Sequence record: PZ445425.1
Strand: one strand, 5' to 3'
From: a phage
Length of the DNA: 60,068 bases
Both the position numbers and the translations under genes were made by a program. Under the pieces are notes generated by a model, which made no database searches, was not told where the DNA came from, and saw nothing but the letters and a program-made list of their open reading frames with translations. Below are positions 27,136 to 51,814 of the stretch, one piece after another. The first letter of the stretch is position 1; each line of letters opens with the position of its first letter.

Positions 27136-28088
27136 TAGACACGTTCTCCAATTAATACACCGCGAAGATTTTCCCCAAAGAATGCGCAAGGTTGCGGATA
27201 CAAACTAAAGTCCGCAGTCTTAACCACATTTTCAAGCAATAGCAGGATATCAATATTGTACACTCCCGTAATTGTCCGGTCCTGCAATACGAAGCTTGCA
27301 CCTTCCGCATCATCATAGTGAGTACGGGCTAGACCGTTTTCGATATATACACGCGGTCTGTCTTCTGCGAAAGGTTTGATTTTATGCAAGCCTTCAAAAA
27401 GACCTGGATCAACAGGATGTGCATTGCATGGAACATTTAAAATACGACGTATATCTGGCCACTCCGCATCAATAAGCTGTGTCCGCAACCAGCGACCTTC
27501 CGGATAATGAAACGTTACGTTATTTTTACTGACCTGAATATGCGTCGGGTTAGCTTTAATACGCAGTATTTCTTTAATTGCAACGGAAGGTATTATGCAA
27601 TCGATAGGGAACTGATTACCAAACCAGTATTCCGCAATAGTGACGTTATTTGTAGCAAACAGGCTACCGTTATTAATCAGGATACCGCAAGCCCACGGAC
27701 GGGAAGCATCGGACCCAACAAATGGAGCAACGGACTTTACACCATGCACGAAGCGAGCACCGTCTATCTCGTATAACTCCCCTTCAGGGAATACGTGAGG
27801 CGTTTCCTTGTCAATGCAGCGTATAGCAACACGAAACGGTCCGGACTTGATATTAAGTTTACCGTTAGCCATCATTGTTAACTGTACGGTTTCGTCACAG
27901 TTTGAAATAGCCTTAATCATTGGACCCGCTTCGGGCTTACAATCAATATCCAGCTCAATAGGACTACCCAGTGCAATAACACCGTTAAAGCCTTGTACCT
28001 GCCCGTCACGAATAAGAAAACTGGTAAGCCCTTCTACCAGTTCCTTTTTAGCAACAGAGCCTTGAACAAATTTAAGAGCGTCTAACAT
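27135..28088 (-). CDS. hypothetical protein (317 aa) coupled to polymerase
   Basis: Long ORF with no recognisable motif; recurring TTAACCACA box about 22 nt upstream. Confidence 0.5.
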   Translation of the reverse strand: MLDALKFVQGSVAKKELVEGLTSFLIRDGQVQGFNGVIALGSPIELDIDCKPEAGPMIKAISNCDETVQLTMMANGKLNIKSGPFRVAIRCIDKETPHVFPEGELYEIDGARFVHGVKSVAPFVGSDASRPWACGILINNGSLFATNNVTIAEYWFGNQFPIDCIIPSVAIKEILRIKANPTHIQVSKNNVTFHYPEGRWLRTQLIDAEWPDIRRILNVPCNAHPVDPGLFEGLHKIKPFAEDRPRVYIENGLARTHYDDAEGASFVLQDRTITGVYNIDILLLLENVVKTADFSLYPQPCAFFGENLRGVLIGERV

Positions 28089-28315
28089 TAGCGATCCTCG
28101 ATTGCTCTAATTGTGGTTAAATCTAATTCACAGGTTGGAGGGTATCCATAAAGTCCCATTTGTTTTCCTTGTGCATTAAACCATGTGCCTGACGGATCCT
28201 GCCACTGCTTAGGTGTCTTGTGGAGAAATACTACTCTGTTTTCACCGTAATAATTAATTCTTACGCCTGTGTGAGTATATTTACGTTTACTTTTTGGTCT
28301 TCTTAAGTTAGCCAT
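28088..28315 (-). CDS. hypothetical basic protein
   Basis: 75-aa ORF, stop/start overlap with neighbours. Confidence 0.4.
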   Translation of the reverse strand: MANLRRPKSKRKYTHTGVRINYYGENRVVFLHKTPKQWQDPSGTWFNAQGKQMGLYGYPPTCELDLTTIRAIEDR

Positions 28316-29235
28316 CAGAACAACTCCATTACACGATCACGGAACGTGCCGTCATGGGTAGCATTAATATTTGCAGCAATTACACCATACGCCCATAAAT
28401 TGAAGGCGGCACGTGATTCATAGATTGTTGATAAACGTTCGTAAGTAAAACCGTTTTGCTCAAGGTATTTAAGGACAGCGTCCTGTTCAATTTCAGTTAG
28501 CGTTGAAACATGCTTACCAAAATGGTGACGGTCTGGTGACTTATCAGATACGCGCATTGGGCCCCACGGAGGAGTAACCACACTTCCAAACGCTGCCGCT
28601 TGAATCCAGGAGGATGAGTCACAGCTATACCACGGGTAACGCTCCATAATGGTTGTGGAGGTGATACCAAATGCATGAAGCTTAATCTTAGGACGACCGC
28701 TACCGTCGCAGATGTATTTGTCCCACATGCGGTCCAGCCAAGTTTTAAGCGTGTCCGTTGAACGCCCTACCATGCCACCAATCGTGATATATTCGTAGTT
28801 CTTCATGTAATATTCAAGATAGCGGAAGTCCTCACCAAAGTGAAAGCACGGTAACGGTTTAGCACCGCGTGCTTCCATTTCAAGCTGGTTACGGTAGGTT
28901 TGCAGTGGATCACCGATACCATCAAGCACCGAGGCCATTACAGCACCATCTTCTACCCGCAGAATATCTTTATTGCGTTTGATGTACTCACAGTATTCAA
29001 CAATATCAATGTGAGCACCTAACGAGTGCGCGGAGAATGCACCAGAGTCGAGAAACACTTTAGCCCCATCCGCACGCATTTGATCAACATACTTCTGACG
29101 CCCAACGTAGTGGTAGGATTCCAAAATATGGGGCAGATTGCGCGTGATATTTTTCTCATGCTCAGACAGCTTTTCATAACGCTGCTGTCCAGGCATATAT
29201 CCGTTCGTGTAAACTGCTGCCATAAAAACGTTCAT
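28315..29235 (-). CDS. dpdA: DpdA-like DNA-guanine transglycosylase (TGT family)
   Basis: 306 aa; VFLDSGAFS motif resembling the TGT catalytic DSGGFQ; no zinc subdomain; co-located with preQ0 synthesis genes. Confidence 0.6.
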   Translation of the reverse strand: MNVFMAAVYTNGYMPGQQRYEKLSEHEKNITRNLPHILESYHYVGRQKYVDQMRADGAKVFLDSGAFSAHSLGAHIDIVEYCEYIKRNKDILRVEDGAVMASVLDGIGDPLQTYRNQLEMEARGAKPLPCFHFGEDFRYLEYYMKNYEYITIGGMVGRSTDTLKTWLDRMWDKYICDGSGRPKIKLHAFGITSTTIMERYPWYSCDSSSWIQAAAFGSVVTPPWGPMRVSDKSPDRHHFGKHVSTLTEIEQDAVLKYLEQNGFTYERLSTIYESRAAFNLWAYGVIAANINATHDGTFRDRVMELF

Positions 29236-29440
29236 TTTTGGAATGGTCCTCCAAACTGATCAATTAATTCTAAAGTACGCCAAGCTTCATTAAATGCTTC
29301 GTCCGCTCGATGTTTAGCGTCAATAAGCTGCTGCTTTAAAACATCTGTAGGCGCATCATTCTGTATTGCAGAGCAAGCATCCGCAGTACCTGCTTTAAGC
29401 TGGTAGAATGCTGTCTCTAAGATTAGTTGTCTTGACATAT
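29232..29440 (-). CDS. hypothetical small protein
   Basis: Start trimmed to ATG 29440 (RBS GGAGGA). Confidence 0.4.
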
Positions 29441-29453
29441 TTCCTCCAATGAC

Positions 29454-29490
29454 TAAAAAGCCCATACCAGTATTATGACCGATATGGGCT
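29454..29490 (-). terminator. terminator-like hairpin downstream of folE
   Basis: agcccata / tatgggct stem with 16-nt loop; TTTTT on minus strand. Confidence 0.45.
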
Positions 29491-29509
29491 TGATCTGTAA
29501 AGCTATCTA

Positions 29510-30103
29510 TTATTTACAAGCTTCAAGGAACTCCCGGCGCCAAGCATCACCTTTAAACGATGCAGCACCGCGGAAAGCTTTAGTAATGGTAGAGCTTCCG
29601 CATACCTGCTTAACCCCGCGCGATTCCATGCACATATGCTTAGCATCGATGTAAACGCACACAGCTTTCGGGTCTAAATGCTCCTGGATAGCATCTGCAA
29701 TCTGGTTAGTAAGACGTTCCTGAACTTGCAGTCGACGACTAAAAGCATCCACAACGCGAGACAGCTTACTAAGCCCAACGATCTTCCCATTGGGGACATA
29801 ACCCACAACAGCACGCCCGATAATAGGAGCCATGTGATGCTCACAATGACTGTATACAGGAATATCACGGACAATGACCATTTCATCCGTACCTTCCGCA
29901 CCATCTTCAAAGGTTTTAAACAATCCAGCGATATCTACATCGTAACCGCTAAACCACGTTGCATAAGCTTTCGCTACACGCTCCGGAGTTTCCTCCAGCC
30001 CTGGGCGCAGAACCGCGCTAACTTCAATTTGGGATAGTAAAGTACGCACAGCGTTAGCAATACGGAATTGAACACCTTCACTATTAATACTATATTTAGA
30101 CAT
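29510..30103 (-). CDS. folE: GTP cyclohydrolase I
   Basis: FolE-like sequence including SHCEHHM motif; alternative ATG at 30133. Confidence 0.8.
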   Translation of the reverse strand: MSKYSINSEGVQFRIANAVRTLLSQIEVSAVLRPGLEETPERVAKAYATWFSGYDVDIAGLFKTFEDGAEGTDEMVIVRDIPVYSHCEHHMAPIIGRAVVGYVPNGKIVGLSKLSRVVDAFSRRLQVQERLTNQIADAIQEHLDPKAVCVYIDAKHMCMESRGVKQVCGSSTITKAFRGAASFKGDAWRREFLEACK

Positions 30104-30134
30104 GGTTTGCAGTTTCCTTGTTAATGTGGTCATA

Positions 30135-30671
30135 TTACAGGCTATAGTTTACGTGGCATTTCGAAGTTTCTTCGATGGTGCATTCTACAAGTTGAACACC
30201 ATGTTCGTCAAGCAGTAGCGGACCAATTACTTCAACCATATATGCAGCTAGGTTTTCCGCAGTTGGGTTGAACGGCAAAGATACCAGTGAATCGTTAAAA
30301 GCTTTAAGATCTTCATCCCCTTCACCGAAAGTAGGCCAACCGCGTTCAGATTGAGTATCCGTTTCAATACAACATTGCAGTCCGTTGATCAACATATCCT
30401 TTTCCCAATGTAGAAACTTATGATCCCAGTTATCTTCTAGCCACTGGCAGAGCGTAGCTTTAACCACACTAAAGTCAATCACGCGCCCAACGCTGTCCAG
30501 ACCGTCCTCAATCAGCTTTCCTCGTGTCACTACTTTTCCGCATCCATGCTTCGGAGCAACCTTAAAGTGAAACTTATAGTTGTGACCGTGGAGGTGGCGA
30601 CATTTGCTTTCATGACCTACAACACGATGTCCGGCGCAAATTTCATGGGAACGAATTACTGTATAGCTCAT
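30135..30671 (-). CDS. queD: 6-carboxy-tetrahydropterin synthase
   Basis: CxxxHGH zinc motif (EICAGHRVVGHESKCRHLHGH). Confidence 0.8.
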   Translation of the reverse strand: MSYTVIRSHEICAGHRVVGHESKCRHLHGHNYKFHFKVAPKHGCGKVVTRGKLIEDGLDSVGRVIDFSVVKATLCQWLEDNWDHKFLHWEKDMLINGLQCCIETDTQSERGWPTFGEGDEDLKAFNDSLVSLPFNPTAENLAAYMVEVIGPLLLDEHGVQLVECTIEETSKCHVNYSL

Positions 30672-31258
30672 TTTAATACCTCTTTAGACTGTTCAATTTC
30701 TAATGCACGCTGTGCGGATGCAATAATGTCTTTCAAATCTTCTACCAGACTTTTATGACCACGTTCGCCCGGCTGCAACGCCTTTTTAATCAAATGTTGT
30801 AAAGCTGGGTTAGTTGTTTTCCAAGCTTCCAAGACATCATACACGTCCACGATGCATTTTACAACATTGCCGTTTTGATCTTTACCATAAATAATTTTCT
30901 GATATTTATTCATGGGAATTTTAGATGGTTCGTATTTCGTAAAAACTGCACCATTAAATGTATTACTTATGCTTATTTCACTAGAAGGGTGATGATACAC
31001 TCCGGAGCGAGTATTTTCCTGGGCTTGTTTGACGTAATCATCCGCAACGATATATCGCCAGGCTATAATATCTTGAATTTTATAAGGGCTATTCTCATCC
31101 ATAGCCGAACGCCCTTCTATAGCCCAGTCCCATCCATGTAATAGATTCTTAACGTGTGTGCCGTTGCGCAAACGAACTTCAAACTTTTCATTGCGAAGAA
31201 AGATTGGCATTCCTTTCCCATCGTGCTGGTGCCAAATTTTATTAAGATTATCTTTCAT
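30668..31258 (-). CDS. hypothetical protein embedded in deazaguanine cluster
   Basis: 196-aa ORF between queD and the transporter gene; no motif recognised. Confidence 0.5.
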   Translation of the reverse strand: MKDNLNKIWHQHDGKGMPIFLRNEKFEVRLRNGTHVKNLLHGWDWAIEGRSAMDENSPYKIQDIIAWRYIVADDYVKQAQENTRSGVYHHPSSEISISNTFNGAVFTKYEPSKIPMNKYQKIIYGKDQNGNVVKCIVDVYDVLEAWKTTNPALQHLIKKALQPGERGHKSLVEDLKDIIASAQRALEIEQSKEVLK

Positions 31259-31260
31259 TT

Positions 31261-31740
31261 TTACGCTCTCGCTGTACGTGAATGAACTTCATAAACAACC
31301 CAAAGGATGGCAGATGCTGTGAACTTACTTAAGCTCATTGCCACCATCGATCCCGGATTAACAATACCTATAATACTTAAGAACACAATGGAGTCAATTG
31401 GTACAGCTACCAAAGAGCTGATAAATACACGTTGATGAAACGGCTTCTTAGTAATCGTGTATACCGCATAGTCCGCAAACTCACTAAGCGCAAAAGACGC
31501 AACGGATGCAACTACAACCGCAGGATCCCCAAATGCCCAGCTAAGGATGCAACCCACAATCATTGCAGGGATAACGCCTTTGCCAGCGTTACGCTGTGCA
31601 TAATCCCGCAGGACAAAGATAATACCTACAAAGAAAGCCATCATGGGGACTACGCCAAGAGGCGTGTTAAGCATTGGAAGGTAGGAAAAGCCCAGGTTTA
31701 CGAATGTAATTGCAGCCAGATAAGCAACGATAAATTTCAT
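31261..31740 (-). CDS. YhhQ/Vut-family membrane protein (putative queuosine-precursor transporter)
   Basis: Multi-pass membrane protein; start set to ATG 31740; assignment from context and hydropathy. Confidence 0.4.
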   Translation of the reverse strand: MKFIVAYLAAITFVNLGFSYLPMLNTPLGVVPMMAFFVGIIFVLRDYAQRNAGKGVIPAMIVGCILSWAFGDPAVVVASVASFALSEFADYAVYTITKKPFHQRVFISSLVAVPIDSIVFLSIIGIVNPGSMVAMSLSKFTASAILWVVYEVHSRTARA

Positions 31741-31860
31741 ACTTTTGTTCTCCAGTTTTAACAGCGTTATTTGCTGGTTGTTGGGTTTAAAAGCTTTAGT
31801 AGTATAGTTGGGTTCCCGCACCCTAAACAATGCGCTAGCGGTGCGGTTTTCGCGGTAAGA

Positions 31861-32583
31861 TCAAACGTGTTTGCTGTAAGCGTTATCCATAAATTCAGTG
31901 TAACCCTTAGCACGGAGTTTACACGCCGGGCATTCCCCGCAACCGTATCCCCAGTCATGTAGAGTACGACGGACGCCGTTATAGCAAGTATGGGACTGCT
32001 CAATTACTGTGGTTAAGAAGCCAACCTTATCCGCCAGCTCAAACGTTTCTGCTTTATTTAAACGCATAAGCGGGGTAACGAAATGAATATCTGTTTCATA
32101 TCCAACGTTTAACGTAGCTTCAAGCAAGTCTACAAACTGCTGGCGGCAATCTGGATAACCGCTATAGTCTGTTTCACAAACGCCCGTAACCACATACCGA
32201 GCGCCAACTTTCTGTGCGTAGGCGTGCGCGGTAGTCAGGAAAAGAGCATTACGGTTTGGCACAAAGCTTGCTGGAAGGTTGTTGTGCTGTTCGTGATGTT
32301 CGTTAACATCACCTTCGTTCCCGATTAAAGCGCTATTGCCAATCTGTTTCAAAGCAGGTAATTCAAAGACAACAAATGGGACATCGTGCTCTTTACAAAT
32401 TTGATTAGCACAAGCCAGCTCAATGTTATGACGTTGACCGTATGCAAAACCAATAGCATAGACCTTATCATAGTTATTAAGTGCAAGACCTAAACAGGTC
32501 ACGCTGTCCTGGCCGCCAGACAGGACGACAACGGCGGAGTTATGATTTTTTACAGGGAATACCAGTTTATCTAATTTATTCAT
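31861..32583 (-). CDS. queC: 7-cyano-7-deazaguanine synthase
   Basis: PP-loop SGGQDS motif and C-terminal Cys cluster; start set to ATG 32583. Confidence 0.8.
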   Translation of the reverse strand: MNKLDKLVFPVKNHNSAVVVLSGGQDSVTCLGLALNNYDKVYAIGFAYGQRHNIELACANQICKEHDVPFVVFELPALKQIGNSALIGNEGDVNEHHEQHNNLPASFVPNRNALFLTTAHAYAQKVGARYVVTGVCETDYSGYPDCRQQFVDLLEATLNVGYETDIHFVTPLMRLNKAETFELADKVGFLTTVIEQSHTCYNGVRRTLHDWGYGCGECPACKLRAKGYTEFMDNAYSKHV

Positions 32584-32584
32584 C

Positions 32585-32773
32585 TTAGAACCCTTTAAGG
32601 CTAATATTAAGATTAATGACCACTTGTTCAACTACATCATCAGATGTCATCTGACGCTTATGAATTTCAAGCTCCGAATGTATGTTCTTGGATGCAGCAC
32701 GACAGATAGCGTCATTCAGCTCGTCTTGTAAACGTTGCATCTTCTGCATAAGAACCACAGTCTCTTCATTCAT
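32585..32773 (-). CDS. hypothetical small protein
   Basis: 62-aa ORF between queC and queE. Confidence 0.35.
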   Translation of the reverse strand: MNEETVVLMQKMQRLQDELNDAICRAASKNIHSELEIHKRQMTSDDVVEQVVINLNISLKGF

Positions 32774-32978
32774 CTTCTACACCTTTAATATTACAAGGAT
32801 TAATTGTTACATTTGACATCACAATTGGATGATTGCGTGCCCCGATTGTACTAACGTGATTAATATCTAATTCTACATGCACTCCCTGCATGGTAGCGTG
32901 AGCAATTGCAGAATTAAGTTTTTCTACCAGCTCAGTGATCATTTCCTGATGCTGTTTCGCTTCTTCTAAAGTGATCAT
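32766..32978 (-). CDS. hypothetical small protein
   Basis: 70-aa ORF between queC and queE. Confidence 0.35.
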   Translation of the reverse strand: MITLEEAKQHQEMITELVEKLNSAIAHATMQGVHVELDINHVSTIGARNHPIVMSNVTINPCNIKGVEDE

Positions 32979-33685
32979 TATTCCACCCCAATATATTTGT
33001 GAACCTGAAGCTGCAACGTGTACCCGTGTTTCATACAGCTTTGGACAACCGCTTGGATGTTACTGTGGTTAAGATCTTCATCCTGCTCGTCCATTGGCTG
33101 TAAATATATCTTACCCTTGAACCCCTTCGGAGGTCTAGCGATAAATGGCGTAGCTTGATGATCTAATGCTTGAAGAGGTAAACCGTCTTCCACGTTTACA
33201 CAGCACGCTTTAAGTACATATTTAAATGCATTAGCGCGGTACAGCACAGAAGGATGAATCTTTGAAGTCTTGGGACTACATACAATCACAGGTAACTGGG
33301 AAAAGTTCTTAGGTAAAGGCATAGACCCATTCGTTTCAATCTGTACAAGATACCCGCGCGATAACAGTTGTTCAATAAACGGGTTAATTTGCTGACGGAA
33401 CGGTTCACCCCCAGTAATAACCACAAGTGAGGTGCTATTGCCTGATTCCAGCTTACGGCTTTCGATTAAACGCATGATATCAACAATGTGGTAAAGAGAA
33501 CGACCAACAGTATAATCCGTGTCGCAGCCCGGGCATTGCAGGTTACATCCAGCAAGGCGCACAAATACCGCAGGTTGACCGCAGAATGGACCTTCACCCT
33601 GAATGGTAGAGAATACCGAATGCACGTCTAAATACATATCGTTTTCTTTAGAACGAGACTCGGGAGCTTGTTGATTAATATTCAT
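32978..33685 (-). CDS. queE: 7-carboxy-7-deazaguanine synthase (radical SAM)
   Basis: CNLQCPGCDT cluster typical of QueE. Confidence 0.8.
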   Translation of the reverse strand: MNINQQAPESRSKENDMYLDVHSVFSTIQGEGPFCGQPAVFVRLAGCNLQCPGCDTDYTVGRSLYHIVDIMRLIESRKLESGNSTSLVVITGGEPFRQQINPFIEQLLSRGYLVQIETNGSMPLPKNFSQLPVIVCSPKTSKIHPSVLYRANAFKYVLKACCVNVEDGLPLQALDHQATPFIARPPKGFKGKIYLQPMDEQDEDLNHSNIQAVVQSCMKHGYTLQLQVHKYIGVE

Positions 33686-33708
33686 CTTAAATCCTCTAGT
33701 GAAAAAGA

Positions 33709-33730
33709 AAGCGCCTCATTGGGCGCCTTC
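33709..33730 (-). terminator. weak terminator-like hairpin
   Basis: gcgcc / ggcgc stem with T-rich tract on minus strand. Confidence 0.3.
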
Positions 33731-33754
33731 ATTATAACGTGATATGTTTTGATA

Positions 33755-34567
33755 TTACAAGCCGTTCAAAGCTTCCGGTACTGGCACAGGTACGCGACCA
33801 GTTACACCATTAAATTTCTTCCAGCGTGCATATTGGGTTTTAACGGTATCTTCGTTCAGACCATGCCGACCAGCCAGGTTCAGAACATAAGAGATCGGAG
33901 CAGGCTGACCCAGCGTAGCGCTAATCTGGTCCATCAGAGCCCAGGCACGACCGCAGGAAGTTTCCGGTTGTGGGCGACGAACACCGTTCTGTTCCGGCAT
34001 ACGATTAGCTTCTTTTTCTTTCTCGCGGAGCTCTTTAGCGCGTGCTTTTTCCGCTTCTTTTTCTGCCTGTTTTGCAGCACGGATCTTGTCTTTGAAGCCT
34101 TTAATAGTAGCTTCCAGACCATCCACCAGACCCTGGGCAGAAGTTACAGCACCGGACAGGTCTTCACCTTTAGACTTCTTAACGACAGCTTTCAGCTCTT
34201 TCAGAGCTTCTTTAATGGTCTTCAGGTTTGCAGATCCCTGAGTTTCTGCTTCCGTGATTTGTTCAACAGTGCTTTCGTCGGTGACGGTAGCCAAAGAGTT
34301 TTTCAGGATTTCAGCAGCGTTAGCAATCGCATTAAATTTGTTTTCCGCTTCAGTGCGGATTTCAGCTTGTTTCTTTTCAGCGGCAGCTTTTTTCTCTGCT
34401 TCTTTTTTCTCTTTTGCTACGCGTGCAGCTTCAGCGGCAGCGGCTTTCTTAGCTTCTGCATCATTCACAGTAGCTTCTTTCTTTGCAGGTTTAGCAGATT
34501 TTGCAGCGGCAGCAGCGGCAGCAGCGGCAGCGGCTTTTTTATCTTCAATGTTGCTCATTCTCTTCAC
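33755..34567 (-). CDS. Ala/Lys-rich low-complexity protein, possibly histone-H1-like DNA-binding
   Basis: 270 aa with poly-Ala and AKKA/EKK repeats plus a C-terminal globular region. Confidence 0.45.
   Translation of the reverse strand: MKRMSNIEDKKAAAAAAAAAAAKSAKPAKKEATVNDAEAKKAAAAEAARVAKEKKEAEKKAAAEKKQAEIRTEAENKFNAIANAAEILKNSLATVTDESTVEQITEAETQGSANLKTIKEALKELKAVVKKSKGEDLSGAVTSAQGLVDGLEATIKGFKDKIRAAKQAEKEAEKARAKELREKEKEANRMPEQNGVRRPQPETSCGRAWALMDQISATLGQPAPISYVLNLAGRHGLNEDTVKTQYARWKKFNGVTGRVPVPVPEALNGL
34503..34534. repeat. GCN trinucleotide repeat (encodes poly-Ala)
   Basis: gcagcggcagcagcggcagcagcggcagcggc. Confidence 0.7.
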
Positions 34568-34685
34568 TCCGAATTGTTATGGGTTCGTTTGTTACCAACG
34601 GGGTTAAATGTACCAAAGGATTTTGTGACACGCAACCCCTTATCTGAATATTTTTAAAAATATTTTTGATCGAGCTTAGAACTTA

Positions 34686-43631: not shown

Positions 43632-44111
43632 TTATTGAATTGAACCGCGATCAATTAACCATTGTTTCGCGTGCGCTTTAAAAATAATGCGATAGTCATC
43701 AAGACTAATCTCCGCGCGGATGGAATCTTTAACTTCGTACCACTGCCACTCACCATTGCTAAAGACGACTGGATTGAGCGGTAGAACAACCTTCCATCCT
43801 TTACGTTCTATTTTATACATCAGAACTGGATATCTTCCAAGCTCTTTAGCCGATTGAACAGTCTGCTTCCACCATGTGTTTACTTGTGGCGTAGCGTGGT
43901 TTTTTACTTCAACTGCATGGTGGCATGTATTGCTAATGTCGCAACCACCGACCGCACTTTGATTCTGGTTACGCTGAGCAATAGGTTTCTCCGGTAACTG
44001 CATCCCCAGCTCTGCGTAGATTTCGGCATAAATTGCATTAAAGAAATCGCATACTTCCCGCTCACCGCGTTGACCTTTAGCGCGAATATTTACTGCCATG
44101 TTTGTCTCCAT
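43632..44111 (-). CDS. PD-(D/E)XK nuclease, possible Holliday-junction resolvase
   Basis: GQRGEREV ... CDIS ... EVK pattern; start set to ATG 44111 because the track start at 44189 overlaps the terminator hairpin. Confidence 0.35.
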   Translation of the reverse strand: METNMAVNIRAKGQRGEREVCDFFNAIYAEIYAELGMQLPEKPIAQRNQNQSAVGGCDISNTCHHAVEVKNHATPQVNTWWKQTVQSAKELGRYPVLMYKIERKGWKVVLPLNPVVFSNGEWQWYEVKDSIRAEISLDDYRIIFKAHAKQWLIDRGSIQ

Positions 44112-44172
44112 AACTTTAATGTAAAACACTTCATAAAGAATTTTATATTGAAGTTCTGTTGATCTCAAGGAA

Positions 44173-44204
44173 CAAAAAAGCCCAGGCATAAGGATTCCTG
44201 GGCT
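44173..44204 (-). terminator. intrinsic terminator
   Basis: agcccagg ... cctgggct hairpin followed by TTTTTT on minus strand. Confidence 0.6.
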
Positions 44205-44485
44205 CTCTTGATTGTCGGATAGCTTACTTTGACTGCCGTCTTCGTCTATCCTGGCCTACTTGTACAGCCTCGCCAAAGGCTGGTGACGGTTTGGTACATC
44301 TGGCGCCGTCGCGTTAAACATCGTTCACATCGTTCAGTAAGTTGCGGGTTTATCCTGTCCGCTCCAGGAAGCCCAGCGAAAGTAGTTGCTGTAAGGAGGT
44401 ACAGCTACCGCTTTCAAGGGTTTGAGTTAAGCATCGTTCACTAAGTTAATGTTGTTAAATTGTTAAACCTCGTTAACTGTGGTTA
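44205..44485 (-). ncRNA. candidate non-coding RNA or structured leader
   Basis: About 280 nt without a plausible ORF, bounded by a TAACCACAGTTAAC box (44471-44485) and the terminator; contains ATCGTTCA(C) direct repeats. Confidence 0.25.
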
Positions 44486-44516
44486 TCTTAAAGGATGCAG
44501 TCTTGAATGGCAAGCT

Positions 44517-44834
44517 TCAATTTTGCGCGGTTCCCTTTGCCGCTTTTGGTGCTAAAGTACCATCATTTAACATCAACTCAAAACCTGTTACTTGATCGGT
44601 TGGAACAATAGGGTAATTCATAATAGCCATGTGGATACGACACCCTCCATCACATTCGTCGATGTATTCACTACCCCAATAGTATAAATGACCATCTCTT
44701 CGAATATCCATTGCTGTAGGGAAATCTACAAGAATTCTTTTGATTTCTTTTCGTCCTTCTTTATGCAGATTAGTTTCAATACGGATAAGCTCCGCATAAA
44801 TTGCTTCACAGATAGTGTTTACAATTCCCATCAT
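44517..44834 (-). CDS. hypothetical protein
   Basis: 105-aa ORF. Confidence 0.45.
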   Translation of the reverse strand: MMGIVNTICEAIYAELIRIETNLHKEGRKEIKRILVDFPTAMDIRRDGHLYYWGSEYIDECDGGCRIHMAIMNYPIVPTDQVTGFELMLNDGTLAPKAAKGTAQN

Positions 44835-45202
44835 TTACCCCTTAAGTTTTGAATCATTCTATCGCAGGCAGCTTTTACAGAAGAGTTCTGCCAGTCTTCT
44901 TCAATTTGTGAAGGTTCTTCAGGCGAATAAGCAGCACTAATTAAACACTGATTATAACCTTCAATATAAGCCTGTTTTGCGGTATCTACTATTGCTTGTA
45001 AAGCAATATTAAATAATTGTTGATCCATCTCACACCTCACAGAATGTACATAAACCAGAAATAAGCAGCTACGAAAATAGCACCCGCAAATAATTTTAAA
45101 AGCTCGAACATTGTTCCCTCCGTTAACTTTATGCTGTAAGTATAGCACGACTTGCGATGTGTGCAACAACTTTAGACTTGAAATACATCTATAAAATAGC
45201 AC
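44831..45202 (-). CDS. hypothetical protein
   Basis: 123-aa ORF; start uncertain. Confidence 0.35.
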   Translation of the reverse strand: MLFYRCISSLKLLHTSQVVLYLQHKVNGGNNVRAFKIICGCYFRSCLFLVYVHSVRCEMDQQLFNIALQAIVDTAKQAYIEGYNQCLISAAYSPEEPSQIEEDWQNSSVKAACDRMIQNLRGK

Positions 45203-45269
45203 GATTTGCCTTTACCTCTGATCCGTCTAGCTGTACTATTAACCCATAAAGAGAGCGGAGGATTACAAA

Positions 45270-45494
45270 ATGGTCATGCTGAATAAAGTATATAGCACAA
45301 TGGGCTCGGATTATAAAGTTGTACGTCACCCGCGTACTGGTAAATTTGAAGCATACATCCGTCCAATGGGTGAAGGTTGGATGTATTACGGTACTTATGA
45401 TGACGCTGAGCAAGCTTATAAAGAAGCGGAAAGTGTAGCGGAAGCATCCGAAATTATGGCAAGGTACGACGTCGATGATTACTACCTTAACTAA
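45270..45494 (+). CDS. hypothetical small protein (lone plus-strand gene in minus module)
   Basis: 74 aa with RBS GGAGG; followed by a terminator. Confidence 0.45.
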   Translation: MVMLNKVYSTMGSDYKVVRHPRTGKFEAYIRPMGEGWMYYGTYDDAEQAYKEAESVAEASEIMARYDVDDYYLN

Positions 45495-45498
45495 CAAT

Positions 45499-45525
45499 AA
45501 AGGGCCAAATAGCCCTTTATTTATT
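45499..45525. terminator. bidirectional terminator
   Basis: aaagggc-caaata-gcccttt followed by a T-run. Confidence 0.65.
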
Positions 45526-47863
45526 CCTCTTCTCCTAAGTTTGCCATAATACCTTCAACATCTTGCGTAATGCGCCAAGCTGCGCCAGTGAATCCCAGTT
45601 TGATAGTCTCCTCCCGTGTTACCGGAACAAGCGCACCCATAGCAACCATCTCTTTGATCGTAGACTCAATTGCCGCGGACAATCCGTGGTGATAGTTTTT
45701 AAACGCGGACTTACTTGCAAGACGAGTAGTAATATCACCCCGCGTGATAATGCCTTCCTTACGCAGATCTACACGTTTAACTTTCACCCAATCTTTAGTT
45801 AGATAATTCACACAAACCTGGCACATAGTACGGATACGAGCTTCGTCATTAGTACCGATACCCCCACTATGCCATTCCTTCATAATGATATCCTGTCCAT
45901 GACGCACAAAGTCCAAGGCCCATTGAACATGATAGGTCTGCACAACCGGATTGATCCAGTTTTCTCCCACAGCTAACAGGGCGGATAGACGTAACACCTT
46001 CAGGTGAGCACGGTTCCAGGGCTGACGGATTGCTTCGTCTTTGGTTGCGTTAATATTACGGTCACATTCGTCGTTAAACTGATCACATAATGCTTCCGCA
46101 TCCGGACTAAACTGCACTTCAATACTTTGATGCTTTGCCATTGCGACTAAGGTGTGGTTAACAAGATGGCACACCATATCCCGCAAATGCTGATCCATTG
46201 TAGTCTGCTGGTTCTTGTTTAAAGGTGGTCGATCCCCTTCATAGCGGACAACATGGAAACGGGATAAGAAACCGTCCTCCATCATTTCACGGGTTAATGC
46301 TTCAAAGAACGTATCCGGTGTCGTTTCACCCATGATGCTATAGGCCACACCTTGTTGAGCTTCCGTATTATTAGCCTTATCAGAATAAGACATACCACCG
46401 ACAATAGACATCTGACCGGACTTTTGATAAACATCGGTAAGGTCGTTCTTGAAGCTTTGCATCGGTGAACCTGCTGGCGCCGTTGCCATCGCTTTAATAA
46501 TCTTACCAAACTCACCATTCAAGTTGATAAAAGATTGTTTGTCCGCAAAAGATTTACGCAGTGCGGAGCCGGAAGCACATCGGTCAAAAGATACAAAGCT
46601 ATGAATCTGCGGAAACGGTTCCTGAAGCTGGCTAACTATATTAGATAGCCCACTGTTCAACGTTTCTTTACCAACACCAGAACGAGCAATAAGGACGAAA
46701 TATCCATTAAGACCCGATTGCGGAATCTGCCAGACCTTCCCGCATACCCCAGCCATAAAGCCTAGCGCTGTCACAATAGAAATTTCTTTCACTGGTCGGA
46801 CGGAGGCTTTATAGATGTATTTCGCAAGCTCCCCAGCAAGCCCCGGCGGCCAGTCAATAGCGGTTGCATCAATAGATGTACTTTCTGCAACTACGGTCTG
46901 CCCCTGTGTTGTTTCAACAGTTACGGGCATTTCCACTACCTGTTGCATTGCACTGTGTGCCGCTTGCATACGGGCAGCATAATCCCGCGCCAGCGCCGCT
47001 ACGTTTTCCTGGGCAATGCGCTCACGCTCCATGCGACCGCGACACATACGCAAGCAACGGTCAATATGAACATTGTTCTTATTAGCCTTCTCACGTTTGC
47101 CCAGTGCGCTATAACGGAACAGACGACGACATTGCTCATTACTTTCCGTGTAAAATGCATACATAGAAATAAGGGCAAGATCTGCTTCAGACTGGGAAGG
47201 GAAACCCATTTCAACCCATTCACCATTGAATAACCGCGCATACTTATCGCCGTTATCCGCTTCAAGTGCACGCTGATGAATAGTTGCATCATCTTCTACC
47301 GGATCTTTTTCTACCAGTTCAATTTCATATGTCTTGCGCTGAAGATCAATTTCATTCACAAGCATAGTAAGGTAATGATCACGTTCTGCAACTGGTTTGT
47401 TATAAACAGGATTGCCCGTGCAAATAATAAAACGCTCCTGACTATAAACCTCGACACCATCACGTCGACGACCTTTACCGATGTTCCCTCTTAACCACAG
47501 GTGGACGCCCAAGCCTGAGCGACTTACTTCGGTGTAAGTATCGAACGCGGTCATGATCTGTTCGAAGCGGCGCAACTGTTCTGGCGTCGTGTGCTTCTTG
47601 GGATCCGGTTCGTTGGTTGCGTTCTTCACATCCAGGTCGATGCAGGTGAAAGGGTCTTGCGCAGTAAGCACGAAGCCTATATAAGGTTTGTTGAAATGCG
47701 CGGCGCAACCTTTGGCAGCTTCAAACGTCATTAGCATATCCGGATCGGTAACGTCCGCCGCCATAAGACGTCCGATATCGTTGTCCCATACGAGCGGCTT
47801 TTTATCCGCATCGGCGACCGCCCATTGTGGGAAAGCTTTAATTTCAGCGGGAAATAGTTCCAT
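45521..47863 (-). CDS. primase-polymerase / helicase-like replication protein
   Basis: 780 aa; N-terminal Prim-Pol-like region with IDLD motif, central P-loop-like GVGKET. Confidence 0.5.
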   Translation of the reverse strand: MELFPAEIKAFPQWAVADADKKPLVWDNDIGRLMAADVTDPDMLMTFEAAKGCAAHFNKPYIGFVLTAQDPFTCIDLDVKNATNEPDPKKHTTPEQLRRFEQIMTAFDTYTEVSRSGLGVHLWLRGNIGKGRRRDGVEVYSQERFIICTGNPVYNKPVAERDHYLTMLVNEIDLQRKTYEIELVEKDPVEDDATIHQRALEADNGDKYARLFNGEWVEMGFPSQSEADLALISMYAFYTESNEQCRRLFRYSALGKREKANKNNVHIDRCLRMCRGRMERERIAQENVAALARDYAARMQAAHSAMQQVVEMPVTVETTQGQTVVAESTSIDATAIDWPPGLAGELAKYIYKASVRPVKEISIVTALGFMAGVCGKVWQIPQSGLNGYFVLIARSGVGKETLNSGLSNIVSQLQEPFPQIHSFVSFDRCASGSALRKSFADKQSFINLNGEFGKIIKAMATAPAGSPMQSFKNDLTDVYQKSGQMSIVGGMSYSDKANNTEAQQGVAYSIMGETTPDTFFEALTREMMEDGFLSRFHVVRYEGDRPPLNKNQQTTMDQHLRDMVCHLVNHTLVAMAKHQSIEVQFSPDAEALCDQFNDECDRNINATKDEAIRQPWNRAHLKVLRLSALLAVGENWINPVVQTYHVQWALDFVRHGQDIIMKEWHSGGIGTNDEARIRTMCQVCVNYLTKDWVKVKRVDLRKEGIITRGDITTRLASKSAFKNYHHGLSAAIESTIKEMVAMGALVPVTREETIKLGFTGAAWRITQDVEGIMANLGEEE

Positions 47864-51497: not shown

Positions 51498-51814
51498 AAT
51501 GCGCCTCCAAGTGTGGTTAAAAAGTAGTACCGTGTTGCTATGGGTACATAATAGCGATGCATTGTGATATTGAATAGGCCAAACGTGCTATTTTGATCTT
51601 GTTTTGCATCTAGTGAAAATTATGCTTGTATCTCATATTTAGCACTAATGGCCTAACTAACATCACACGATCTGGTCTACGCGCGTGCATACATACATAT
51701 AAGGAGCGCCGGACAGGATCGGACCGACCAGGGGCGCACAACCGTCCCTATCTGCCCTGTAAACTGGTCCACGGACCAGTCCAAAATATTTTTATAAAAA
51801 GATGCAAAAAGGTG

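What the first reader, a model, noticed from the sequence alone, without database searches (positions are those of the whole stretch)
45270..45494. Single plus-strand gene inside the 28-kb minus-strand module
It has a good RBS and its own downstream bidirectional terminator, and it overlaps an antisense track ORF that looks non-coding. A lone convergent gene in a unidirectional operon often marks a regulator, moron or antisense-regulation point.
Basis: seen in the sequence. Interest (0 to 1): 0.35.

Follow-up and report, generated by a model that had tools for sequence, protein, structure and literature searches.

The report
Phage anti-defence gene, already described
The lone plus-strand ORF is a real 74-codon gene of a Seuratvirus coliphage, 96% identical to ΦDruSM1 ORF65, which a 2024 preprint showed the phage needs to plate on E. 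coli carrying the hhe (and partly Druantia I) defence systems; here it also looks like an acidic, remote relative of the AP2 domain.

Summary
ORF 45270-45494(+) has a GGAGG ribosome-binding site 8 nt upstream. A hairpin terminator (45496-45521) abuts the stop codon of the convergent primase gene. The overlapping antisense ORF is a non-coding shadow, and this is the only real plus-strand gene in the 28-kb minus-strand module.

The window is a Seuratvirus (about 97% identical to phage CAjan). The gene is CAjan gp62, Seurat gp59 and PHROG 22269. It is under purifying selection (dN/dS 0.1-0.35) and keeps its position in relatives down to 39% identity.

It is 96% identical to ΦDruSM1 ORF65. An in-frame deletion of ORF65 is viable but lowers plating about 1000-fold on hhe-expressing E. 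coli, and also lowers it on Druantia type I. A 66-nt deletion just upstream gives the same two phenotypes (bioRxiv 10.1101/2024.04.14.589459).

New here:
- The family is strongly acidic (pI 4.1-5.1).

I therefore favour a direct protein inhibitor of HheA over a DNA-binding regulator, but this is inference. Verdict: already known and ordinary for a phage accessory gene; the mechanism remains open.

The parts
45270..45494 (+). CDS, 74 aa, acidic (pI 4.6). Ortholog of CAjan gp62, Seurat gp59 and ΦDruSM1 ORF65 (anti-hhe); PHROG 22269; remote AP2-like fold.
   Evidence: literature
45257..45261 (+). Shine-Dalgarno GGAGG, 8 nt before the ATG. Invariant in all relatives aligned.
   Evidence: annotated as a ribosome-binding site in Seurat
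45211..45239 (+). Putative sigma-70 promoter of the gene: weak -35 TTTACC (45211-45216), 17-nt spacer, -10 TACTAT (45234-45239). The -10 is invariant from the window to the 39%-identity relative. This assignment is inferred; at 8 of 12 matches it falls below the scan tool's threshold.
   Evidence: conservation; not called by the scan; the ΔPH_ORF69 deletion removes the -35 and upstream DNA and phenocopies ΔORF65
45160..45225 (.). The 66 nt equivalent to the ΦDruSM1 'PH_ORF69' deletion. That deletion gives the same hhe and Druantia I sensitivity as deleting the gene. The 30-codon ORF here (45157-45249) is not conserved as an ORF, so the region acts in cis.
   Evidence: (primer junctions), (ORF absent or truncated in L011, L013 and STP-SP5)
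45171..45191 (.). 21-nt block TTTAGACTTGAAATACATCTA, near-invariant across all relatives and unique in the window. Role unknown (operator or factor site?).
45196..45210 (.). ATAGCACGATTTGCC: a second copy of the ATAGCACGAYTTGC repeat (first copy at 45142-45155). On the minus strand it reads as an extended -10-like TGCTATTTT. Conserved in most relatives but not all (absent in L011).
45139..45166 (-). Divergent minus-strand promoter P1: -35 TTGCAC (45166-45161), 16-nt spacer, extended -10 TGC-TATACT (45147-45139). Conserved in all relatives (TGCTATAAT in STP-SP5). Inferred.
45037..45111 (-). Unannotated, conserved 24-codon hydrophobic micro-ORF (MFELLKLFAGAIFVAAYFWFMYIL) with its own GGAGG. It is the first cistron of the divergent minus-strand operon.
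45496..45521 (.). Bidirectional intrinsic terminator shared by the gene and the convergent primase. It is also a sharp mosaic junction between phage lineages.
   Evidence: annotated on both strands in Seurat
45189..45497 (-). Antisense 102-codon ORF: a non-coding shadow of the real gene.

Best explanation
The ORF is a real, separately transcribed accessory gene of a Seuratvirus (Queuovirinae) coliphage. It is the ortholog of ΦDruSM1 ORF65, an anti-defence gene.

Shown by sequence and by published genetics on the 96%-identical ortholog:
- It encodes a conserved 74-aa protein.
- It is dispensable for growth.
- Without it, the phage plates about 1000-fold worse on E. coli expressing the single-protein helicase/Vsr-nuclease defence HheA (hhe), and worse on Druantia type I.
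- Deleting 66 nt of the upstream intergenic DNA has the same effect.

Inferred here:
- The gene is driven by its own weak sigma-70 promoter (-10 TACTAT, 45234-45239). This lies in a 158-bp control region that it shares, back to back, with the promoter of the next minus-strand operon.
- Transcription stops at a hairpin that also terminates the convergent primase gene. The gene can therefore be expressed independently of the long replication operons around it.
- The protein has a three- to four-stranded beta-sheet packed on a long C-terminal helix, remotely related to AP2/ERF domains. Unlike those domains it is strongly acidic, above all in the helix and tail.
- The mechanism I favour is stoichiometric binding and blocking of the defence protein HheA, possibly with the acidic helix occupying a DNA-binding surface, rather than sequence-specific DNA binding.
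For: Identity:
- The window is about 97% identical to CAjan and Seurat.
- The ORF is annotated in the same place in every relative.
- PHROG 22269, E 4e-53.
- 95.9% aa identity to the ΦDruSM1 CDS labelled 'ORF65 (PH_ORF70)'.
- The preprint's deletion primer junction GAGCGGAGGATTACAAAATG|gtcgatgatt... matches this gene's ribosome-binding site, start codon and 3' end.

Function (bioRxiv 10.1101/2024.04.14.589459):
- The ORF65 deletion is viable; plating efficiency falls by 10^-3 with small plaques on hhe, and is reduced on Druantia I.
- ΔPH_ORF69 shows the same phenotypes.
- The EVADES resource lists orf65 as an anti-defence protein against hhe.

Coding and selection:
- dN/dS 0.09-0.35.
- Synonymous changes occur inside the invariant N-terminus MVMLNKVYS.
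- Position next to the primase is kept down to 39% identity.

Fold:
- AF2 model with pLDDT 78, strands followed by a long helix.
- Beyond the family's own members (and one assembly chimera), the significant hits in a 1.84-billion-protein profile search are multi-repeat proteins; all 10 of those I scanned are Pfam AP2 proteins.
- hhalign against an AP2 profile: 96.7%.
- 39% identity over 36 columns to the AtERF1 domain.

Against DNA binding, for an inhibitor:
- pI 4.05-5.05 across the family; net charge -2 to -12.
- Helix and tail carry net -4 to -9, and the sheet itself is net negative in the most distant members.
- The AP2 base-contact positions R19 and R22 are L and G/E there.
Against: - The phenotype comes from a preprint on an ortholog, not from this phage. 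The text I could read does not state explicitly that ORF65 in trans restored plating.
- No experiment shows that ORF65 alone neutralises HheA against an unrelated phage. An indirect (regulatory) role would fit the same genetics.
- The AP2 relationship would normally predict DNA binding. K16, K/R25, R31 and W37 on the sheet are conserved.
- The gene sits next to a deeply conserved 21-nt block of unknown role.
- The promoter is inferred only. The consensus scan calls no promoter in the intergenic region, and there are no transcript data.
- Fold matches are weak: Foldseek against the PDB finds nothing at E < 0.1. Pfam AP2 scores 15.4 bits against a cut-off of 33.3.
Confidence: 0.6

Rival explanations
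1. It is a small AP2-type transcription factor. It would bind the shared 158-bp control region (for example the conserved 21-nt block or the ATAGCAC repeats) and control its own promoter, the divergent minus-strand operon, or both. The anti-hhe and anti-Druantia phenotype would then be indirect, through mis-expression of another product. One candidate is the unannotated 24-aa membrane micro-ORF (45037-45111), which was never deleted in the ΦDruSM1 library.
For: - AP2 domains are the only distant sequence relatives.
- Basic and aromatic sheet residues K16, K/R25, R31 and W37 are conserved.
- The arrangement is the classic one of a regulator divergent from its target.
- ATAGCAC occurs four times in one orientation within 228 bp (45077-45298), out of 12 copies in the 60-kb window.
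- The conserved 21-nt block is unique in the window.
- Deleting the 66-nt region that holds these elements phenocopies the gene deletion.
- The preprint's HHpred call was a 'transcriptional regulator (SplA)'.
Against: - Every family member is acidic (pI 4.05-5.05), and the sheet is net negative in P0018 and STP-SP5.
- R19 and R22, equivalent to the AtERF1 base contacts, are lost in distant members, yet the DNA blocks stay conserved there.
- According to the preprint text, no deletion of the annotated downstream minus-strand ORFs gave an hhe phenotype.
- The second ATAGCAC-containing element is missing in L011, which keeps the gene.
- Pfam finds no SplA match at E up to 10.
Confidence: 0.25
2. 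It is the surviving DNA-binding domain of a decayed free-standing HNH-AP2 homing endonuclease that once inserted, in the opposite orientation, between two operons. On this view it has no present function of its own.
For: - Weak PHROG hits to the AP2-like parts of HNH endonuclease families (phrog_99 E 0.003; phrog_953 E 0.04).
- Seuratviruses carry HNH endonuclease genes nearby (CAjan gp67).
- It has its own promoter and terminator, and sits exactly at a mosaic junction.
Against: - Purifying selection.
- Present at the same site in all 34 phage records that hold it, and in relatives down to 39% identity.
- Full-length conservation, including an N-terminal extension.
- The ortholog has a deletion phenotype.
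- No nuclease remnant flanks it: the neighbouring DNA is a promoter region on one side and a terminator on the other.
- An endonuclease ancestry remains possible, but 'functionless remnant' does not.
Confidence: 0.05
3. The plus-strand transcript itself is the active product: an antisense or decoy RNA, or a transcriptional-interference device against the primase or the divergent operon. The ORF would be incidental.
For: - Convergent arrangement with the primase gene.
- The preprint's authors note that non-coding nucleic acids could underlie some of their phenotypes.
Against: - dN/dS is well below 1, and amino acids are conserved through synonymous changes.
- The hairpin sits between the two stop codons, so the convergent transcripts barely overlap.
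- The 5' region shows no significant structure (z +0.58).
- No Rfam match.
Confidence: 0.04

Closest known systems
ΦDruSM1 ORF65 (anti-hhe anti-defence gene; Ojima et al., bioRxiv 10.1101/2024.04.14.589459; GenBank PP596835 NGRRMQZB_69; PHROG 22269; CAjan gp62; Seurat gp59)
   Same: 95.9% aa identity over all 74 residues. Same position and orientation: convergent on the primase, divergent from the next operon. Same ribosome-binding site, upstream region and terminator.
   Different: Three amino-acid differences. The window has private S13 and V56 and ends in N where ΦDruSM1 has S. The phenotype has not been tested for this phage. The neighbouring primase C-terminal part is only about 60% identical and one downstream gene is replaced.
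AP2/ERF DNA-binding domain (Pfam PF00847; e.g. AtERF1 GCC-box binding domain, PDB 1GCC/2GCC)
   Different: Below Pfam's gathering score (15.4 against 33.3 bits). Acidic rather than basic. The loop between strands 2 and 3 is two residues shorter. Only about 3 of the 7 AtERF1 base-contact positions are retained, and fewer in distant members (the AtERF1 contact residues are from my own knowledge of Allen et al. 1998). It has an extra conserved N-terminal strand, MVMLNKVYS. It stands alone, in a phage.
HNH-AP2 homing endonucleases of phages and cyanobacteria (the AP2 domain as DNA-recognition module)
   Same: A phage-borne AP2-like module. Weak matches to the AP2-like part of PHROG HNH endonuclease families.
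   Different: No nuclease domain. The 74-aa protein consists of the AP2-like module plus tails. It is conserved and fixed in position rather than sporadic and mobile.
Small acidic phage inhibitors of nucleic-acid-targeting defences (e.g. AcrIIA4, Ocr as DNA mimics)
   Different: No significant sequence or fold relationship. The AcrIIA4 score is 14.1 bits against a cut-off of 27. Neither DNA mimicry nor binding to HheA has been shown.

Membership tests
PHROG 22269 / ΦDruSM1 ORF65 anti-hhe family | Full-length sequence match to the family | tested here: met
   phrog_22269 E 4.3e-53 over residues 1-74 of 74. 92-99% aa identity to 33 Seuratvirus records, including ΦDruSM1 at 95.9%.
PHROG 22269 / ΦDruSM1 ORF65 anti-hhe family | Conserved genomic position: opposite-strand gene convergent on the primase, divergent from the next operon | tested here: met
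   Same arrangement in Seurat, CAjan, Skure, DruSM1, GottfriedDienst, STP-SP5 and metagenomic contigs L011-L013.
PHROG 22269 / ΦDruSM1 ORF65 anti-hhe family | Loss of the gene sensitises the phage to hhe (HheA) and Druantia type I | not testable with these tools
   Known only for the ΦDruSM1 ortholog, from the preprint.
AP2/ERF domain (Pfam PF00847) | Score at or above Pfam's gathering threshold (33.3 bits) | tested here: not met
   15.4 bits, E 0.023 for the window protein. The best family member reaches E 0.0018. Only 2 of 8 members hit at all.
AP2/ERF domain (Pfam PF00847) | Profile-level homology to AP2 domains | tested here: met
   Apart from family members (and one assembly chimera), the hits with E <= 1e-3 in the 1.84-billion-protein library are multi-repeat proteins; all 10 I scanned are Pfam AP2 proteins. 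hhalign 96.7%, E 3.4e-10, against a profile of 124 AP2 domains. That profile was built from proteins retrieved by the query, so the test is partly circular. An independent check against AtERF1 alone gave P 1.8e-4 and 39% identity over 36 columns. The top PDB sequence hits are ERF096, WRI1 and AtERF1, but with E 0.085-0.48.
AP2/ERF domain (Pfam PF00847) | Three-stranded antiparallel sheet packed against a C-terminal helix | tested here: met
AP2/ERF domain (Pfam PF00847) | Conserved Arg/Trp DNA-contact residues on the sheet and a basic domain | tested here: not met
   Only R31 and W37 are invariant, and K/R25 is mostly kept. R19 and R22 are L and G/E in distant members. pI is 4.05-5.05. DNA binding itself is not testable here.
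HNH-AP2 homing endonuclease | HNH nuclease domain joined to the AP2 module | tested here: not met
   The protein is 74 aa with no HNH match in Pfam. The flanks are a promoter region and a terminator.
AcrIIA4 anti-CRISPR (Pfam PF24304) | Score at or above the gathering threshold (27 bits) | tested here: not met
   14.1 bits, E 0.062, in 1 of 8 family members.
SplA transcriptional regulator (HHpred suggestion in the preprint) | Detectable match to the Pfam SplA model | tested here: not met
   No SplA hit for any of the 8 family members at E up to 10. hmmscan is less sensitive than HHpred, so this does not exclude the preprint's weak hit.
Bidirectional intrinsic terminator | GC-rich hairpin followed by a U-run on both strands, between convergent genes | tested here: met
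   Hairpin 45496-45521: -12.9 kcal/mol (+ strand, z -4.5) and -14.6 kcal/mol (- strand, z -2.8). The + strand tail is UUUAUUUAUU. The - strand tail, UUAUUGUUAGUU, is weaker and was not called by the scan. Stem conserved and loop variable across relatives.

The most novel reading that the evidence does not exclude
An AP2/ERF-type domain is otherwise known as a DNA-reading module of plant and apicomplexan transcription factors and of phage homing endonucleases. Here it may have been turned into a free-standing, acidic protein that directly blocks the large helicase-nuclease defence protein HheA, and partly Druantia type I, perhaps by presenting its acidic helix as a DNA surrogate. That would be a new structural class of anti-defence protein and a new use for the AP2 fold.

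A less likely variant, about 0.1: the protein is a true AP2 regulator, and the real anti-hhe effector is the unannotated 24-aa membrane micro-ORF it controls.
Probability: 0.35. Interest if true: 0.55.

Novelty: already known. Interest (0 to 1): 0.3.

Why it matters
It explains the odd orientation. The gene is a self-contained accessory cassette, with its own promoter and a shared terminator, wedged between two replication operons. It is not a regulatory curiosity of the operon.

It links this window to experimental data. The 96%-identical ortholog lets a Seuratvirus overcome hhe and contributes against Druantia I. That is relevant to choosing or engineering phages for E. coli strains that carry these systems.

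The mechanism of anti-hhe activity is unknown. The AP2-like ancestry together with the acidity seen here gives a concrete, testable choice: direct inhibitor or DNA-binding regulator. It also points to an untested neighbour, the 24-aa micro-ORF, and a conserved 21-nt element that the published deletion removed.

Tried and rejected
1. Invertible segment. A 45-aa library protein (P0013) fuses the N-terminus of the neighbouring minus-strand gene to the C-terminus of this gene, at the imperfect inverted repeat 44959-44986 / 45399-45426. Its 1218-bp contig carries an intact copy of the gene, and the last 98 nt are the exact reverse complement of contig positions 591-688. This is a fold-back assembly or library chimera, so I rejected the idea.

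2. 'PH_ORF69' (45157-45249) as a second small gene. It is not conserved as an ORF in L011, L013 or STP-SP5. I treat it as a cis-acting region.

3. ATAGCACGAYTTGC as a genome-wide operator or promoter motif. There are only two exact copies, both in this intergenic region, plus one 2-mismatch copy at 51578. This is not above chance for the whole window.

4. The 21-nt conserved block elsewhere in the window: none found with up to 3 mismatches.

5. Consensus promoter scan: it calls no promoter in 45113-45269. My promoter assignments rest on cross-phage conservation and the published deletion.

6. Rfam: no match in 44000-46000 at E <= 1.

7. 'Island of conservation'. My first impression was that the gene and its intergenic region are unusually conserved. 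The sliding-identity comparison changed this: the whole stretch to the left (43770-45490) is 90-100% identical in Skure and GottfriedDienst, and identity drops only at the terminator.

8. Homology to the positional analogue Vid5_ORF60: none (hhalign 0.2%).

9. Fold libraries. afdb50 was unavailable. Foldseek against the PDB was not significant. BFVD returned only uncharacterised small phage proteins apart from the ortholog itself.

10. A literature search for 'anti-hhe' returned only unrelated papers.

Full report
**What the window is.** A 3-kb stretch around the finding is 97% identical to Escherichia phages CAjan and Seurat (genus Seuratvirus, subfamily Queuovirinae) and matches 36 phage records. 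The gene order is the Seuratvirus one. Structural genes lie on the plus strand up to about 23.5 kb. A minus-strand replication and 7-deazaguanine-modification module runs from 23552 to 51562. Plus-strand small genes follow.

**Checking the observation.** The ORF 45270-45494 (+) exists: ATG start, 74 codons. GGAGG lies at 45257-45261, 8 nt before the ATG.

- Terminator. Two nucleotides after the stop codon comes the hairpin 45496-45521, followed by TTTATTTATT. The terminator scan calls it on the plus strand. It folds at -12.9 kcal/mol on the plus strand (z -4.5) and -14.6 kcal/mol on the minus strand (z -2.8). It abuts the stop codon of the convergent primase gene (45521-47863). In six Seuratviruses the stem is invariant and the loop varies. 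The Seurat record annotates it as a terminator on both strands.
- Antisense ORF. The 102-codon ORF 45189-45497 is open only in close relatives. It carries 2-7 stops in L009, L011, L013 and STP-SP5, so it is a shadow.
- Other plus-strand ORFs. The long plus-strand ORFs elsewhere in the minus module (27507-28065; 33749-34657) lie opposite real minus-strand genes. In CAjan, gp62 is the only plus-strand gene among gp26-gp70.

**It is a real gene.**
- It is annotated as a hypothetical protein at the same place in Seurat (gp59), CAjan (gp62), Skure, Dru_SM1 and GottfriedDienst.
- It matches PHROG 22269 end to end (E 4e-53).
- tblastn finds it in 34 phage records: 33 at 92-99% identity and one (Salmonella phage STP-SP5) at 39%.
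- In STP-SP5 and in metagenomic relatives at 54-56% identity, the gene again sits on the opposite strand. It is about 30 bp from the end of the primase gene and about 230 bp from a divergent operon whose small genes differ between phages.
- Pairwise dN/dS against the window is 0.09-0.35. For the 82%-identical relative, dS is 0.57 and dN 0.105.
- The N-terminus MVMLNKVYS is almost invariant as protein (only positions 2, 6 and 7 vary, each in one relative) but carries synonymous differences (CTG/TTA/TTG, GTC/GTT, TAT/TAC). The constraint is therefore on the protein.

**What is already known about it.** The ΦDruSM1 GenBank record labels the ortholog 'ORF65 (PH_ORF70)' and the small upstream ORF 'PH_ORF69'. 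Ojima et al. (bioRxiv 10.1101/2024.04.14.589459) attempted to delete all 105 ORFs of ΦDruSM1 and plated the viable mutants on a library of defence systems.

- The ORF65 deletion was viable.
- It lost the ability to escape Druantia type I, although less strongly than the ORF71 deletion.
- It plated 10^-3 as well, with smaller plaques, on cells carrying hhe.
- Deletion of PH_ORF69 'located upstream of ORF65' had the same effect.
- The supplementary primer table fixes the deletions exactly. The ORF65 junction is GAGCGGAGGATTACAAAATG|GTCGATGATTATTACCTTAGCTAA, an in-frame deletion that leaves M-VDDYYLS.
- The PH_ORF69 junction is ...GACTTACGATG|TCTAGCTGTACTATT.... In window coordinates this removes 45160-45225 and keeps TACTAT and everything downstream.
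- The preprint counts ORF65 among the verified anti-defence genes and gives an HHpred label of 'SplA'. A later resource lists orf65 as an anti-defence protein against the single-protein system HheA.
- hhe carries a Vsr-type nuclease domain and acts on lambda, T3 and T7.

**The control region.** I aligned the intergenic DNA from the window with relatives whose protein is 96, 82, 56, 54 and 39% identical. The conserved pieces are:

1. A 24-codon hydrophobic micro-ORF on the minus strand (45037-45111, MFELLKLFAGAIFVAAYFWFMYIL) with its own GGAGG. It is conserved as a peptide in all relatives where I could call it and is annotated in none of the records I looked at.
2. A minus-strand promoter: TTGCAC, 16 nt, then the extended -10 TGC-TATACT (45166-45139). 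In STP-SP5 the -10 reads TGCTATAAT.
3. A 21-nt block, TTTAGACTTGAAATACATCTA (45171-45191). It is near-invariant everywhere and unique in the window. I cannot read it as a sigma-70 element on either strand.
4. ATAGCACGATTTGCC (45196-45210), a second copy of a repeat. It is conserved in most relatives but missing in L011.
5. TACTAT (45234-45239), invariant, with a weak -35 17 nt upstream (TTTACC here; TAGACA in L011), followed by a conserved CATA and the ribosome-binding site.

I take item 5 as the gene's own promoter. The published 66-nt deletion removes its -35 and everything upstream and mimics loss of the gene. The 30-codon 'PH_ORF69' is not an ORF in L011, L013 or STP-SP5. These promoter calls are inferences: the consensus scan reports no promoter in this interval, and I found no transcript data for any Queuovirinae phage.

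**What the protein looks like.**
- Pfam gives only sub-threshold hits: AP2 at 15.4 bits against a cut-off of 33.3, and AcrIIA4 at 14.1 against 27.
- A profile of four family members was searched against 1.84 billion representative proteins. It found four further family members, one assembly chimera, and otherwise proteins with 2-8 repeated matches. All ten of those that I scanned are multi-AP2-domain proteins (Pfam AP2 E 1e-13 to 2e-64).
- hhalign of the family against 124 AP2 domains cut from those proteins gives 96.7% probability. That profile came from query-selected proteins, so the test is partly circular.
- Against the AtERF1 GCC-box domain alone, the alignment has 39% identity over 36 columns with P 1.8e-4.
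- The top PDB sequence hits are ERF096, WRI1 and AtERF1, but at E 0.085-0.48.
- The AlphaFold model (pLDDT 78) has strands 7-9, 13-19, 26-32 and 38-43 and a helix at 46-71.

My reading is that the protein is a probable remote AP2 homolog with a generic small sheet-plus-helix fold. It is not a Pfam-grade member.

**Why I favour an inhibitor over a regulator.**
- All eight family members are acidic: pI 4.05-5.05 and net charge -2 to -12. The helix and tail carry -4 to -9. In the two most distant members even the sheet is net negative.
- Of the sheet positions that align with the AtERF1 base contacts, only R31 and W37 are invariant. R19 and R22 become L and G/E in distant members.
- The intergenic DNA blocks nevertheless stay the same in those phages. 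That is not what co-evolution of a regulator with its operator predicts.
- According to the preprint text, no deletion of an annotated gene in the divergent operon gave an hhe phenotype.

Small acidic proteins that bind nucleic-acid-handling defence enzymes are a common anti-defence solution. Direct binding to HheA is therefore the simplest model.

It remains an inference. The same genetics would fit a regulator whose target is the untested micro-ORF. The conserved 21-nt block inside the deleted 66 nt has no explanation.

**Things around it.**
- Sequence identity to Skure, GottfriedDienst and DruSM1 is 90-100% from about 44270 (from 43770 in Skure and GottfriedDienst) to 45490, apart from a replaced gene at about 44800-45000 in DruSM1. 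It falls to 45-80% from the terminator into the primase 3' half. The primase C-terminal 299 aa are only about 60% identical in DruSM1 and SD04. So the terminator is a mosaic junction, and the gene belongs to the left-hand module.
- Pantoea phage Vid5 and the Nonagvirus ChristophMerian also have small opposite-strand ORFs directly after the primase. Vid5_ORF60 shows no detectable homology to this family.

**Verdict.** It is already annotated in every relative, and its ortholog has a published anti-defence phenotype, so this is not a discovery. What remains open is the mechanism. The AP2-like ancestry and the acidity found here frame the question: direct HheA inhibitor (about 0.6 together with the identity claim) or DNA-binding regulator (about 0.25). 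Interest is modest.

Noticed in passing
window 45037-45111 (-): A conserved 24-codon hydrophobic micro-ORF (MFELLKLFAGAIFVAAYFWFMYIL) with its own GGAGG. It is the first cistron after the divergent minus-strand promoter and is annotated in none of the records I looked at. The peptide is conserved from the window to STP-SP5. It was not among the ORFs deleted in the ΦDruSM1 library.
   Followed up: partly
window 45171-45191: The 21-nt block TTTAGACTTGAAATACATCTA is near-invariant in relatives down to 39% protein identity and unique in the window. It lies inside the 66 nt whose deletion phenocopies loss of the gene. It is not readable as a sigma-70 promoter element.
   Followed up: partly
window ~45495-45525 (terminator) and 45521-46420: A sharp mosaic junction. 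Left of the terminator, identity to Skure, GottfriedDienst and DruSM1 is 90-100%. To the right, in the primase 3' half, it falls to 45-80%. The primase C-terminal 299 aa are about 60% identical in DruSM1 and Aeromonas phage SD04. So there are two primase C-terminal lineages within the genus.
   Followed up: partly
L014 (ENA ERZ27275850 k141_29406) 1069-1218; window 44959-44986 / 45399-45426: A 45-aa 'protein' in the public library (P0013) is a chimera: the N-terminus of the neighbouring gp61-like gene joined to the C-terminus of this gene. The last 98 nt of the contig are the exact reverse complement of positions 591-688 of the same contig, joined at a short imperfect inverted repeat. This is a fold-back artefact, not an invertible segment.
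   Followed up: yes
L015 2922-3143 (Pantoea phage Vid5 ORF60); L016 2960-3249 (Nonagvirus ChristophMerian): Other phages with a related primase also carry one or two small opposite-strand ORFs directly after the primase gene. Vid5_ORF60 is 73 aa and acidic. It has no detectable sequence similarity to this family, which suggests a conserved 'slot' with exchangeable content.
   Followed up: partly
window 44100-44516: About 417 bp with no annotated gene, between the RusA-like resolvase gene and the gp60-like gene. It contains a promoter-like site on the minus strand (44168-44140, 10 of 12 matches) and a TTG-start plus-strand ORF at 44229-44444. Several relatives differ here by insertions of about 300 bp, and GottfriedDienst annotates a small plus-strand ORF in this gap.
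   Followed up: no
window 51578-51594: The element CGTGCTATTTT, the same as the extended -10-like element at 45193-45203 (-), recurs on the plus strand. It lies in the intergenic region where the minus-strand module gives way to the plus-strand small-gene module.
   Followed up: no
window 28088-34660 (-): The 7-deazaguanine (queuosine-like) DNA-modification cluster typical of Queuovirinae is present (tgt-like, folE, queD, queC, queE homologs by colinearity with CAjan gp35-gp45). In ΦDruSM1, deletions in this region sensitise the phage to BREX and restriction-like systems, according to the preprint.
   Followed up: no
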